Below, piece by piece: positions 22,201-26,159 of a stretch of DNA of 64,000 nt. Position 1 is the stretch's first letter. Every line of letters begins with the position of its first letter. The stretch covers positions 7,068,001-7,132,000 of the forward strand of contig CM035353.1 in NCBI GenBank assembly GCA_020137815.1. Direction: 5' to 3'. A model generated the notes under the pieces. That model was not told the DNA's origin. It did no database searches and saw nothing but the letters and a program-made list of their open reading frames with translations. The DNA is from Hormiphora californensis (lineage: Eukaryota; Animalia; Ctenophora). Position numbers and translations under genes: made by a program.

Positions 22201-25200
22201 AGTCATATCTCTGGAGTCTAATGAGATAGAGAGTTCAAATTTTTAGGAGAGACAGATAAGACGATTTCGAATGTTTTGTCTGCTTTACGAGTTGCTACAT
22301 TTTACCATTTGTTCACAGGAAGTGATGTAATACGCTCTAATTAGGCCAAATTTAGGTCATTTTACCCCTCAAAGATCACATGTCCAGCTGCATCTAGTGG
22401 GCTAATGAGGCCTTGAACACGCATACGTCACGTGTTACTGTAGTGCTAGAGCTCTCCTTTTCCATCTTGAACCAGCAGACATGATCATGGTGTCTGGAAG
22501 TGGTAACAAGCTGTAGAAAACCAGACAGACTAGATGCTCTCTACTTCAACGTATAGTATCACTCTCTCCCTTTCTCGTTATAAGGTCACGTGACTGGAAT
22601 TGGGATCTCGACATGGGAGAGAGAGAGAGAGAGAGAGAGAGAGAGAGAGAGAGAGAGAGAGAGAGAGAGAGAGAGAGAGAGAGAGAGAGAGAGAGAGAGA
22701 GAGTGTGTGTGTGAGTGAGAGAGAACGCTTTGTAGATATTGTGATCATGTCGAGATCCCAATTCCAGTCACGTGACCTTATAACTAGAAAGGGAGAGAGT
22801 GATACGTTGAAGTAGAGAGCATCTAGTCTGTCTGGTTTTCTACAGCTTGTTACCACTTCCAGACACCATGATCATGTCTGCTGGTTCAAGATGGAAAAGG
22901 AGAGCTCTAGCACTACAGTAACACGTGACGTATGCGTGTTCAAGGCCTCATTAGCCCACTAGATGCAGCTGGACATGTGATCTTTGAGGGGTAAAATGAC
23001 CTAAATTTGGCCTAATTAGAGCGTATTACATCACTTTAAACAGTTCCTGTGAACAAATGGTAAAATGTAGCAACTCGTAAAGCAGACAAAACATTCAAAA
23101 TCGTCTTATCTGTCTCTCCTAAAAATTTGAACTCTCTATCTCATTAGACTCCAGAGATATGACTGTGTAAAGTTGGAGGAGGTTTTTGGGCAATAGATTC
23201 ATTCAGGAACATTGAAATTTGCTGTAAAACTAGGAGAAAATTGCTACAACCTAGTTTTATCATGTCCCAAAATTTGAAGTCGAAAGATACCATAGTTTTC
23301 ACGCAATTCGCAATATACCAGTCTCAGTCATTTAAAATCACACAGTACAGTCGGACCCCGATTTAACGGCCCCCGATTTAGCGGCACCCCGATTTAACGG
23401 CAGCATAATCTTCCCCCGATATGGGAAATTAGGATTATTTGACCCCGATTTAGCGGACACCCCGATTTAACGGAAAAATCCTTTCCCCCGAGGGTGCCGT
23501 TAAATCGGGGTCCGACTGTATATGCAATATTCATGTATTGATGACATCATCATTTCTGATTAGAAATAGAAAAATATAAAATAGTTTTTTTTCAAAAAAA
23601 TGTGAAAAATTTTCTAAGTTATACCAGCCCGTCCGATTGTGTTTCGAATCGGTGCAGCTTACTGGATGTCCTGTCTAATTAGTGGATTCCAAACGAACCG
23701 ATACGTGATACCATGCCGAATCGGGGCACCCTAAGCGGGTGAGGAAGTATCAAAATTTCAAAATAACTTTTTCTCTCAAAATTTACGGGGAGCACCGATC
23801 AAAGCATTGACAATCGTACTGTAAAATTTTGCAAAAATTTTTTAAAATTTTTTAAAGGTATGCCAGCCACGTCCGAATCGTGTTTCGAATCGGTGCATCT
23901 TATCGCATGTCCTGCTGCTAATTAGACGGTTCGGAAGGAATCGAAACGTGATCCCCATCGAATCGAAATTTTGACGCTTGGTGAACTTGTGATTCAATGG
24001 CCCCATGGGGATCACGTATCAGTTCGTTCCGAACCGTCTAATTAGCAGCAGGACATGCGATAAGATTCACTGATTCGAAACACGATTCGGACGTGGCTGG
24101 TATATTTTTGAAAAATTTCACAAAAAATTTCACAAAAAAAATTAAAAAAATTTTTGGGGGAAAAAATCCTGTCCCTAAATCGGGGTGCCCCTAAATCGGG
24201 GGCCCCTAAATCGGGGTCCGACTGTATAATAATTGAGTACTAGAGTTAGAAGGGCCTTTCATCAACTACAGTTGTGTCTGCTGTCTGAATTCAGCTGAAT
24301 AGATGTAAAGCTCAGAGTACTACTATTATAGGTACAACTATTTGTATACCGATGGGGTACTTATATATCATTTATGTACCCCATATCGATGTTATTAATT
24401 ATTAATTATAAATTTACTCATTCAATTGCTGCACTATATTGTCTTTACAGGCCACACGAACTCTGTATGCGTACAGTGAGGGAATTTTAATGGATAGGAC
24501 TTGCTGGGCAGAAACAAACCATGCAGTGGCCGGGGTGGGCTACACTCCGCAGTATATAGTCGTTAAAAACAGGTATTATGCATAGATAATATACATGTTA
24601 TAACTATAATTATAACATTTCATAGATCCAATATCTATAAATACTATACTTTTGCTTTTGGATACAACGTATGAGCGCTTAGATGACCACGTGCCAAAGT
24701 CGCGTGCGCTGCCACCCTTTTTGTGCATTGTTGTAGCAGTCCTACTAATTATGGATATAATATTTTCAGTTGGGGCGCTGATTGGGGTGAATCTGGTTTC
24801 TTTAAAGTTCTCAGAGGATGGCGTAACTGCGGTCTCTACACTAGGATTCACTACCCAACAATGAGCACCACTGACAAAGCTGAAATTGATGAAGCGGATG
24901 AAGCGTCTAATTATGATCACAGTGCTATCGTAGGACCTGATCCCCCAAAACCAGACCGTAAGTTAGTTCCAGAACACGGTTAATAAGATTTGTTTAAAGA
25001 ATATAATATCCCTCCTGCCGCCTAATCTATCGATAGAGATCAGGGGGTGCTGTATGTATAAACTTCAGCTTCAGGGGGTATAGTTACTGGACAGTAATGC
25101 TTGACCCTGTTTCCCCGCGTGTGTTGTGTGAGAAAAGATTATTCTAAGATCCTCCTTTACATATTTTTCCGTGAGGTTCGAGCAAGGCAACATGGTTATT

Positions 25201-26159
25201 ATAGAGTCTGCAGAGAAGTCGTGAAGATCATCTATCCCACAAATGAGATTAGGTTGGAATCCAATCTATGAGAGTTCCAACTTGGATCTCTCAGAGATAA
25301 ATTTCTAATTAGATCATGAGCTGCACCCCCCCCCCCGCTGCTGTCCACGTGGTATGATATCCTACTTGAATGTTACATGTGGTGTTCCTAGAATGCATGT
25401 TCATGCTAATTCATTATGTCTCATAAGACCCGGCGGCCGGCTATGTATTAAATATATGAAGATCAGAAAATACTCTCCAGAGAAAAAGTATGTCGTTTGC
25501 CATAAGATAGACTAAACAAACATAGTGGTTATGTGTACATTAATATCAAAAACATGTTTAAACAGTCGTTAGTTAACCTCATGTTCAAGTAATATAACGG
25601 CTATAATTACCCCTGATGTCTCATAGGTATTCTTCGCCAAATGTCACTGAAAACTCAAGGAATTATATAGCTGGGACGTGGACCTTTAAGAGCACGCGTC
25701 ATGGTCATGTCGTTAAATTCGCAAAATTTCGTTGCCTTAAATAAACTTGTCTCCATCGATTAGATTTATATTTTCTCGAGGGAGATCAGGCGAGCTGTCA
25801 AAGCGCTGAATTATTGGAGAATAGATCAGGGACACTGCAGTGCCTGATCTTCCCCAAGAAAATATATAATCGATGGACCCCAAACCCCAAACCGTCGTTA
25901 AATTTCGTTACCAACTTGTCTCCATCGATTATATATTTTCTTGGGGAAGATCAGGCACTGCAGCTTAAGCTGAGACAATTGACAAATTTCGCCCTAAACC
26001 CTTTTCAAAATTAACACGTGTACCATATGTGTTTCAGCGGATTGTTCTAACATGTGGGGGGACGCGTACTGCAACCGTCTAACCTTCTCTTCCTGTCACG
26101 CTGAGCAAACACGGAACATCCTGTGTAGAAAGAAGTGTGGAAACTGTTGGATTGAATAG
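13038..26159 (+). CDS. Papain-family (C1A) cathepsin L-like cysteine protease with I29 propeptide and C-terminal ShK-like domain; apparent +1 frameshift in exon 2
   Basis: GT-AG exons: 13038-13145, 13957-14065, 16561-16684, 16800-16922, 17182-17307, 17420-17485, 21316-21398, 24451-24572, 24770-24957, 26038-26159. Motifs: signal peptide, NKFSDM-TDDE, QGRCGSCWAF, EQEYLDC, GCTGG, NHAV, KNSWG.WGESGF, and CRKKCGNC near the stop. Confidence 0.92.
14150..15692. mobile_element. Solo copy of the 1.5-kb Helentron/Helitron2-like non-autonomous element in cathepsin intron 2
   Basis: 5' hairpin AGGTGCC-GGCA-GGCACCT then TCCGACCCGAAG; its inverse CTTCGGGTCGGA lies near the 3' end; near-identical to units at 38954-44480. 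Confidence 0.7.
16014..16132. repeat. (CT)n microsatellite
   Basis: Directly visible. Confidence 0.95.
17858..19182. mobile_element. Probable degenerate TIR element in a cathepsin intron
   Basis: CACAGACTGATCAAACTTGATAATG at the left; inverted matches CATTATCAAGTTTGAT and AAGTTTGATGAGTCTGTG at the right; TSD not resolved. Confidence 0.45.
21861..24224. mobile_element. Nested MITE complex: long CAGTCGGACCCC-family element containing a foldback and a smaller family member
   Basis: Outer TIRs with TA flanks; inner MITE at 23348-23518; interior 23520-24120 is related to the interior of 41405-42361. Confidence 0.75.
22018..23347. mobile_element. Foldback element with about 600-bp arms around a (GA)n core
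   Basis: 22018-22614 is the near-perfect reverse complement of 22746-23347; ends TA-CTGTGTG...CACACAG-TA. Confidence 0.85.

What the first reader, a model, noticed from the sequence alone, without database searches (positions are those of the whole stretch)
24770..26159. Secreted cathepsin-L-like protease fused to a C-terminal ShK-toxin-like domain
Seen: after the end of the C1A domain (NCGLYTRIHYP) the frame continues through an acidic/Pro linker and splices (phase 1, 24957 to 26038) to a last exon reading DCSNMWGDAYCNRLTFSSCHAEQTRNILCRKKCGNCWIE*, i.e. C-x8-C-x7-C-x9-C-x3-C-x2-C. The ORF track misses this exon. Known: the ShK fold ends in CxxxCxxC (ShK: CRKTCGTC) and is usually appended to astacins, MMP23, tyrosinases and peroxidases. 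I do not know it as a standard papain-family architecture. Inference: exon shuffling produced a protease-ShK chimera, perhaps digestive, defensive or used in prey handling. The ShK Lys-Tyr dyad appears absent (QT), so channel block is doubtful.
Basis: partly seen in the sequence, partly recalled or inferred. Interest (0 to 1): 0.8.

Follow-up and report, generated by a model that had tools for sequence, protein, structure and literature searches.

The report
Comb-jelly papain proteases carrying ShK domains
This expressed, spliced gene, likely from a comb jelly, joins a papain-type protease to a small sea-anemone-toxin-like (ShK) domain and belongs to a large family with the same layout, which likely supplies the still unidentified acid digestive proteases of the comb-jelly throat rather than a venom.

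Summary
RNA contigs from two studies join 24957 to 26038. The last exon folds confidently (pLDDT 90), and 8 of 8 structural matches are ShK-type folds, although Pfam misses it. It is not a one-off chimera: Mnemiopsis and Bolinopsis orthologues share the layout, and 80 of the 120 best-listed relatives carry the tail. These form one branch apart from animal cathepsin L. All named members are comb jellies. 72 of the 80 end in a further, unclassified 19-residue Cys/His module that this gene lacks. The 'linker' is partly conserved, with an invariant Tyr. The Lys-Tyr dyad is absent here and rare in the family. Best reading: an acid-activated, secreted or lysosome-like digestive protease with a tethered ShKT accessory domain; tissue, activity and the domain's role are untested. 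Ten literature searches found no description of this fusion. New variant of a known kind (enzyme plus ShKT).

The parts
13038..13145 (+). Inferred exon 1: ATG, hydrophobic signal-peptide-like stretch, start of propeptide
   Evidence: Sequence, GT donor and phase; hydropathy. No RNA cover and no tblastn hit at E<=10: the weakest exon.
8481..8588 (+). Second copy of exon 1 (2 differences in 108 nt) inside a ~92%-identical segmental duplicate (6099-8701 vs 10425-13256)
13957..14065 (+). Exon 2: I29 propeptide core (ERFNIN- and GNFD-like motifs); 109 nt, frame shifts near 14000, stop at 14014-14016 as assembled
   Evidence: P0009 matches 13960-14004 in one frame and 13982-14062 in the next, E 0.017; no read cover; no JGI match
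16561..16684 (+). Exon 3: end of propeptide with N-glycosylation sequon (Asn invariant in 66 of 66), start of mature domain
16800..16922 (+). Exon 4: oxyanion Gln (16823-16825) and catalytic Cys (16841-16843)
   Evidence: Pfam Peptidase_C1 E 9.5e-10
17182..17307 (+). Exon 5: C1A domain
   Evidence: Pfam E 7.6e-06
17420..17485 (+). Exon 6: C1A domain
21316..21398 (+). Exon 7: C1A domain
   Evidence: tblastn E 0.01
24451..24572 (+). Exon 8: catalytic His (24520-24522) and Asn (24568-24570)
   Evidence: junction to exon 9 in an X3 contig
24770..24957 (+). Exon 9: end of C1A domain (to 24857), then acidic/Pro connector with family-invariant Tyr (24912-24914)
24958..26037 (+). Phase-1 GT..AG intron, 1080 nt
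   Evidence: Skipped by contigs of X1 and X2
26038..26159 (+). Exon 10 coding part: ShKT-fold domain (six Cys, 26043-26147) and stop; transcript contigs run on to 26211-26213

Best explanation
The gene encodes a papain-family cysteine protease followed by a six-cysteine domain predicted to have the ShK fold, and it likely works as an acid-activated digestive enzyme of the comb-jelly pharynx or lysosome-like granules, with the ShK domain likely staying attached as a binding or stabilising module rather than acting as a free toxin. Shown: the splice into the last exon; intact Gln/Cys/His/Asn; a family with the same layout in comb jellies. Predicted: pro-cathepsin fold, ShKT fold, an ordered connector. 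Inferred from C1A biochemistry: signal peptide entry to the secretory path, glycosylation of the invariant propeptide sequon, propeptide release at low pH. Inferred and untested: pharyngeal expression, the substrate, the ShKT role, and that the exon 2 frameshift is an assembly slip.
For: Junction in two studies. All 44 of 44 family-invariant columns, including the catalytic residues, are kept in the window protein. Orthologues in Mnemiopsis leidyi (KAL5272794.1) and Bolinopsis microptera (XP_063692375.1) have the same layout, with 70-71% identity in the mature domain and 57-60% in the ShKT. Model of the Mnemiopsis-type protein: pLDDT 89.9, pTM 0.89, connector blocks mostly 94-95; it aligns to procathepsin K/L and pro-papain at Z about 36 over residues 17-331. 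Window domain model pLDDT 89.7; 8 of 8 matches at Z>=2 among 48,161 chains are ShK-type. Expansion: 4 named Mnemiopsis genes and 9 named Bolinopsis proteins, 12 of 13 with the six-Cys tail. K-Y/F at the recalled ShK dyad offset in 2 of 80, one residue off in 4 of 80; domain charge runs from -6 to +12, +1 here. [quoted passage not shown] ShKT-astacins are mostly expressed in barrier epithelia or gut (PMC9848320 passages).
Against: No tissue or cell-type expression was available; the runs are environmental. The old inhibitor data say 'cathepsin B-like', whereas this family has an I29, L-type propeptide. A Mnemiopsis papain-family gene of similar domain coordinates (ML15994a, 383 aa, C1A 115-322) is listed among colloblast candidates (PMC6278862 supplement rows); its membership in this family is unverified, but it would point to tentacles. 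ShKT non-Cys positions are the most variable part of the family (0.34 against 0.71 for the mature domain), as in diversifying toxin scaffolds. Exon 2 is frameshifted as assembled and no read covers it. ShKT fold Z-scores are low (2.9-3.6) and Foldseek E-values are not significant.
Confidence: 0.55

Rival explanations
1. The protein is a prey-capture or defence secretion from tentacle or skin gland cells; the protease would cut the connector and release the ShKT domain to act on prey ion channels.
For: ShK fold; hypervariable non-Cys positions. Dyad-less MMP23 still modulates Kv1 channels (PMC6409789 passages). An ShK-domain protein marks Mnemiopsis tentacle cell C54, and a similar-sized papain gene is a colloblast candidate (PMC6278862 passages and supplement rows).
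Against: Dyad absent here and at the ShK offset in 2 of 80. The one ShK-domain tentacle candidate in that supplement is a Sushi-repeat protein, not a protease. In 72 of 80 relatives the ShKT is internal, followed by a more conserved module. The connector is predicted to be ordered and has an invariant Tyr. Within the orthologue group the ShKT is about as conserved as the connector.
Confidence: 0.13
2. The family serves barrier immunity or matrix remodelling (mucus turnover, antimicrobial action, wound healing) rather than bulk digestion, with the ShKT acting as an antimicrobial or matrix-binding module.
For: Aurelin, an antimicrobial ShK-fold peptide, is among the fold matches. Hydra ShKT-astacins act in morphogenesis, and others are proposed for epithelial defence (PMC9848320 passages). 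Some paralogue domains are strongly basic (up to +12).
Against: The window domain is near neutral (+1). A Mnemiopsis immune-repertoire paper has no main-text mention of cathepsin or papain (PMC11797021 term search); this is weak. A large paralogue set with varied residues at specificity-pocket columns (pocket assignment recalled) fits a digestive battery at least as well.
Confidence: 0.2
3. The family is real, but this copy is a recent pseudogene or null allele because of the exon 2 frameshift (this can hold together with any of the functions above).
For: Exon 2 is 109 nt, with homology split over two frames and a premature stop as assembled. The 5' end lies in a duplicated segment. No run covers exons 1-2 (0 of 4).
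Against: The other nine exons are open with canonical splice sites. 44 of 44 invariant columns are kept, and near-invariant columns are kept as in its orthologues (36 of 50, against 34-38). Spliced 3' transcripts occur in two studies, although an early stop would normally trigger decay (general knowledge). Single-base slips are common in assemblies (general knowledge).
Confidence: 0.2

Closest known systems
ShKT-astacins (M12A + ShKT, e.g. Hydra HMP1/HMP2/HAS7) and MMP23
   Same: Secreted protease zymogen with a C-terminal ShKT module; gut and barrier epithelium expression is typical (PMC9848320, PMC6409789 passages). The MMP23 domain is a fold match (2k72, Z 3.4, rmsd 1.7, 33 aligned).
   Different: The catalytic domain here is a cysteine protease (C1A), not a zinc metalloprotease. 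The co-domain list in the passages read names metalloproteases, prolyl-4-hydroxylases, tyrosinases, peroxidases, oxidoreductases, CAP and trypsin-like domains; 'cathepsin' occurs 0 times in that paper.
Cathepsin-L-like C1A zymogens (procathepsin L/K, pro-papain, Fasciola and Tenebrio digestive cathepsins L)
   Same: I29 propeptide, Peptidase_C1 domain, Gln-Cys-His-Asn, same predicted fold. RefSeq names the Bolinopsis orthologue 'procathepsin L-like'.
   Different: A tail of about 70 residues with ShKT; no listed structure aligns past residue ~335. Short His-to-Asn loop as in papain. The family sits on its own 100-supported branch, away from named animal cathepsin L rows.
C1A proteases with Cys-rich C-terminal extensions (plant granulin-type RD21/triticain; cruzipain), recalled
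   Same: Protease, Pro-rich connector, small disulfide domain. Triticain's entry title names its granulin domain.
   Different: The appended module is ShKT-fold, not granulin. Whether it is processed off, as recalled for those enzymes, is unknown.
Free ShK-type peptides (ShK, AeTX-K, ShKT-Ts1, OspTx2a, aurelin, Nak1)
   Same: Six-Cys pattern ending C-x3-C-x2-C and predicted fold.
   Different: Tethered to an enzyme; Gln-Thr at the recalled dyad position; fails the Pfam ShK cut-off.

Membership tests
C1A papain family | Peptidase_C1 domain above the curated cut-off | tested here: met
   Three window exons pass 20.7 bits singly (39.4, 26.6, 22.1); orthologue P0003 scores 171 bits
C1A papain family | Catalytic Cys, His, Asn and oxyanion Gln | tested here: met
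   All four present in the window and invariant in 66 of 66 relatives
C1A papain family | Proteolytic activity | not testable with these tools
   Needs an enzyme assay
Cathepsin-L-like subgroup | I29 propeptide with ERFNIN- and GNFD-type motifs (motif definitions recalled) | tested here: met
   I29 50.2 bits on P0003; motif columns conserved in the family. In the window the motifs are visible but split by the exon 2 frameshift; the 20-residue second half alone gave no Pfam hit.
Animal cathepsin L orthologues | Groups with named animal cathepsin L in a tree | tested here: inconclusive
   The family is a separate branch; named cnidarian and arthropod cathepsin L rows group elsewhere, but deep forks are unsupported, the trees are quick or FastTree and unrooted, and no one-clade test was run
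ShKT domain | Six Cys ending C-x3-C-x2-C | tested here: met
ShKT domain | Pfam PF01549 at or above 20.9 bits | tested here: not met
   No hit on the window exon, 7.3 bits on P0003. 8 of 48 relatives scanned do pass, and a profile from 76 paralogue domains outside the window's subclade scores the exon 23.4 bits, reached by 6 of 1000 Cys-fixed shuffles.
ShKT domain | ShK fold | tested here: met
   Predicted only: pLDDT 89.7; 8 of 8 matches at Z>=2 are ShK-type, Z 2.9-3.6, rmsd 1.7-2.2 for seven, 33-36 aligned; 2 of 2 Foldseek rows are ShK-type but E>=3
ShKT domain | Disulfide pairing 1-6, 2-4, 3-5 (recalled) | not testable with these tools
   Model coordinates are not returned
ShK-type Kv channel blockers | Lys-Tyr dyad between Cys3 and Cys4 | tested here: not met
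   Gln-Thr at the recalled offset; 2 of 80 relatives have K-Y/F there. The dyad is neither necessary nor sufficient (PMC6409789 passages).
ShK-type Kv channel blockers | Channel block | not testable with these tools
   Needs electrophysiology

The most novel reading that the evidence does not exclude
Comb jellies built their extracellular digestion on their own expanded clade of lysosome-type papain proteases, each fitted with an ShKT domain and usually a new 19-residue Cys/His end module that together tether the enzymes to prey or pharyngeal mucus. These are the unidentified acid proteases of the ctenophore pharynx, and a digestive toolkit independent of the neutral zymogens of cnidarians and bilaterians.
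Probability: 0.3. Interest if true: 0.72.

Novelty: new variant of a known kind. Interest (0 to 1): 0.5.

Why it matters
A 2019 review states that the proteases of ctenophore pharyngeal digestion are unidentified and speculates that they are co-opted lysosomal enzymes (PMC6733828, section 7). This family gives named Mnemiopsis and Bolinopsis genes with which to test that, and so bears on whether comb-jelly guts evolved their chemistry independently. It also adds cysteine proteases to the enzymes that carry ShKT and supplies about 80 diverse natural ShKT domains that profile searches mostly miss. Against over-rating: enzyme-plus-ShKT is a familiar design, members already sit in RefSeq under generic names, and no function was shown.

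Tried and rejected
Whole-genome search: no genome is held for this window, so paralogue number and intron positions in this species are unknown. Word-based search with the last exon alone found nothing; the exhaustive search gave 4 hits, of which 1 was real (P0003) and 3 were repeat-rich proteins without the six-Cys pattern in the matched stretch, rejected. Atlas: best ShK cluster scored 0.87, under the 0.9 mark, a lead only; no usable hit for the 19-residue end module, which shows neither absence nor novelty. Exon 2 frameshift: 0 of 4 runs cover exons 1-2 and a pattern across it matched nothing in JGI contigs; unresolved. Complex prediction of protease plus connector with the ShKT gave no verdict (score 0.00, alignment not used). 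No second paralogue and no exon for the end module in the window. In JGI loci the tail pattern occurred in 2 of 80, both inside the family branch; that scan read 2 of 64 parts of the collection. Literature: ten searches listed no paper whose title or abstract start describes a C1A-ShKT fusion; most listed papers were not opened. A papain-superfamily classification has 0 occurrences of 'ShK' (PMC10318531, term search only). The Mnemiopsis genome supplement held as text has none of the four gene ids. Subscription papers, InterPro architecture tables and the Mnemiopsis single-cell atlas could not be searched. Earlier scan notes held nothing on this gene. Rejected: chance six-Cys match, a transcript ending only at 24983, a one-off chimera, and horizontal transfer from plants (top PDB sequence hits to papain score like those to animal cathepsins, and the gene has nine introns).
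Full report
Observation. The window holds a ten-exon gene on the + strand from 13038 to 26159 (model). Exon 24770-24957 finishes a papain-family domain and continues through an acidic, Pro-rich stretch. A GT..AG phase-1 intron leads to 26038, where 39 codons with six Cys end in a stop. Of four runs laid on 24300-26450, X1 and X2 (two studies) each hold a contig that skips 24958-26037 with no mismatch, X3 joins the two preceding exons, and X9 gave nothing. 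The pattern occurs once in six frames of 64 kb.

Is the tail an ShKT? Pfam does not recognise the window exon and gives its orthologue 7.3 bits against a cut-off of 20.9, so the profile test fails. Three other tests agree that it is one. An AlphaFold model built on 71 sequences has mean pLDDT 89.7 with three short helices. All 8 of the 48,161 chains that reach Z 2 are ShK-type: Nak1, the MMP23 domain, a Brugia peptide, aurelin, ShKT-Ts1, OspTx2a, AeTX-K and a CRISP tail, at Z 2.9-3.6; such Z values are low, and the domain is tiny. Eight of 48 relatives scanned pass the Pfam cut-off at the same position, up to 42 bits. A profile from 76 paralogue domains outside the window's subclade scores the exon 23.4 bits, reached by 6 of 1000 shuffles with Cys fixed.

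It is a family. The exhaustive search with the last exon found a 400-residue protein with the same layout, whose cluster holds Mnemiopsis leidyi KAL5272794.1. A second cluster holds Bolinopsis microptera XP_063692375.1. A full-length search gave 5990 papain-family hits; of the 120 listed, 80 carry the six-Cys tail. In a quick tree of 118 catalytic domains (5 rows skipped for lacking the search motifs) all 80 tail-bearing rows fall in one 83-row branch with support 99. The three rows in it without a full tail are two that end inside the tail and one short-tailed sister, P0125. With 70 more domains from metagenome loci, a 25-row sample of the family is still one branch (support 100), apart from named cnidarian and arthropod cathepsin L rows. 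Every named member is a comb jelly: 4 Mnemiopsis genes and 9 Bolinopsis proteins, 12 of 13 with the tail, plus an EukProt record whose id style I recall as Pleurobrachia. Most members are unnamed, and searches seeded with this family cannot exclude separate C1A-ShKT fusions elsewhere. The window is therefore likely from a ctenophore; unchecked notes on other pieces of this genome say the same.

(a) 72 of the 80 relatives end in a further 19-residue module with four Cys and two His, ten columns invariant. It gets no specific Pfam family and no Atlas hit. The window gene and its four listed orthologue clusters stop right after the ShKT. (b) The connector holds a Tyr invariant in 66 of 66 aligned proteins and several strongly kept acidic and small residues. 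In the model of the Mnemiopsis-type protein it is mostly at pLDDT 94-95, and whole-chain pTM is 0.89, which suggests an ordered connector but remains a prediction. (c) An N-glycosylation sequon at the end of the propeptide is kept in 66 of 66 and in the window. (d) ShKT non-Cys positions are the least conserved region (0.34, against 0.71 for the mature domain). K-Y/F sits at the recalled ShK dyad offset in 2 of 80 and one residue off in 4; the window has Gln-Thr.

A flaw in this copy. Exon 2 is 109 nt; homology runs in one frame to about 14004 and continues in the next, and the frame stops at 14014-14016 as assembled. No run covers it and no JGI contig matches across it. The rest shows no decay: 44 of 44 invariant columns are kept, and 36 of 50 near-invariant ones against 34-38 in its orthologues, 10 of the 14 misses being the absent end module. 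I put an assembly slip at about 0.8. Exon 1 is inferred only and is duplicated at 8481-8588. The family-level result does not depend on this copy.

Mechanism. By standard C1A biochemistry the protein would enter the secretory path, be held inactive by its I29 propeptide and activate at acid pH. The review PMC6733828 (section 7 read whole) reports pharyngeal juice of pH 5-6.3, tryptic and cathepsin-B-like activities by inhibitor profile, and unidentified enzymes, and it speculates on co-opted lysosomal enzymes. An expanded clade of secretory-path papain proteases is the natural candidate, though its propeptide is L-type and no expression data tie it to the pharynx. The ShKT likely remains a tethered accessory domain, as in ShKT-astacins of gut and barrier epithelia (PMC9848320 passages). 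Confidence 0.55. Against it: a Mnemiopsis papain gene of similar coordinates, ML15994a, is a colloblast candidate missing from Beroe and Haeckelia (PMC6278862 passages and supplement rows). I could not confirm that it belongs here, and loss in those two genera would also fit their different prey (inference). Absence of the dyad does not exclude channel activity (PMC6409789 passages). Rivals: released channel-active peptide 0.13; barrier immunity or remodelling 0.2.

Novelty. Enzyme-plus-ShKT is a known design. The C1A version was not described in what ten searches listed or in the six papers opened in part. The library lacks most subscription papers, and supplements or InterPro tables that I could not see may list the architecture. 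RefSeq and GenBank carry members as 'procathepsin L-like', 'uncharacterized' or 'hypothetical'. Verdict: real; a new variant of a known kind; interest 0.5, mainly because it makes the identity of ctenophore digestive proteases directly testable.

Noticed in passing
C-termini of relatives, e.g. P0011, P0045, P0117 (not in the window): A 19-residue four-Cys, two-His end module with ten invariant columns in 72 of 80 family members, more conserved than the ShKT; no specific Pfam family, no Atlas hit. Candidate metal-binding or sorting module.
   Followed up: partly
window 13957-14065: Frameshift in exon 2 as assembled; assembly slip or null allele, unresolved.
   Followed up: partly
window 6099-8701 and 10425-13256: About 92%-identical segmental duplicate that includes a second exon 1 (8481-8588); an alternative first exon or a haplotype duplicated in the assembly.
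   Followed up: partly
P0101, P0107: Family members with three and two tandem ShKT domains.
   Followed up: no
P0125: 333-residue sister of the whole family with a short tail and no ShKT; a pre-fusion form, a loss or a truncated record; source unnamed.
   Followed up: no
Bolinopsis XP_063691259.1, XP_063691261.1, XP_063691262.1, XP_063691263.1: Four near-consecutive accessions on a contig of the same length suggest a tandem cluster of paralogues.
   Followed up: no
window 24843-24845: Arg at the column that aligns with papain's Ser at the bottom of the S2 pocket (pocket assignment recalled); most relatives have Tyr there (49 of 66), so specificity may differ.
   Followed up: partly
window 3185-3823, 22018-23347, 27548-29092, 29337-30017, 31305-32482, 36821-38076, 58607-60995: Many long, near-perfect inverted repeats (foldback or MITE-like); one lies in the intron between exons 7 and 8.
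   Followed up: no
window 14183-15691 and 38952-44776: A 1.5 kb element, 97-99% identical, with one copy in intron 2 and several tandem copies downstream.
   Followed up: no
window 61987-63663 (+): 558-codon open frame with a Pfam Aconitase match (E 4.5e-45), looking like a divergent aconitase/IRP-type gene; unusually long for an exon in this window.
   Followed up: partly
window 59116-59777 (-) and 37161-37505 (-): Short frames that look like piggyBac-type and GIY-YIG-type remnants by eye (recalled); no Pfam hit at E 0.01.
   Followed up: partly
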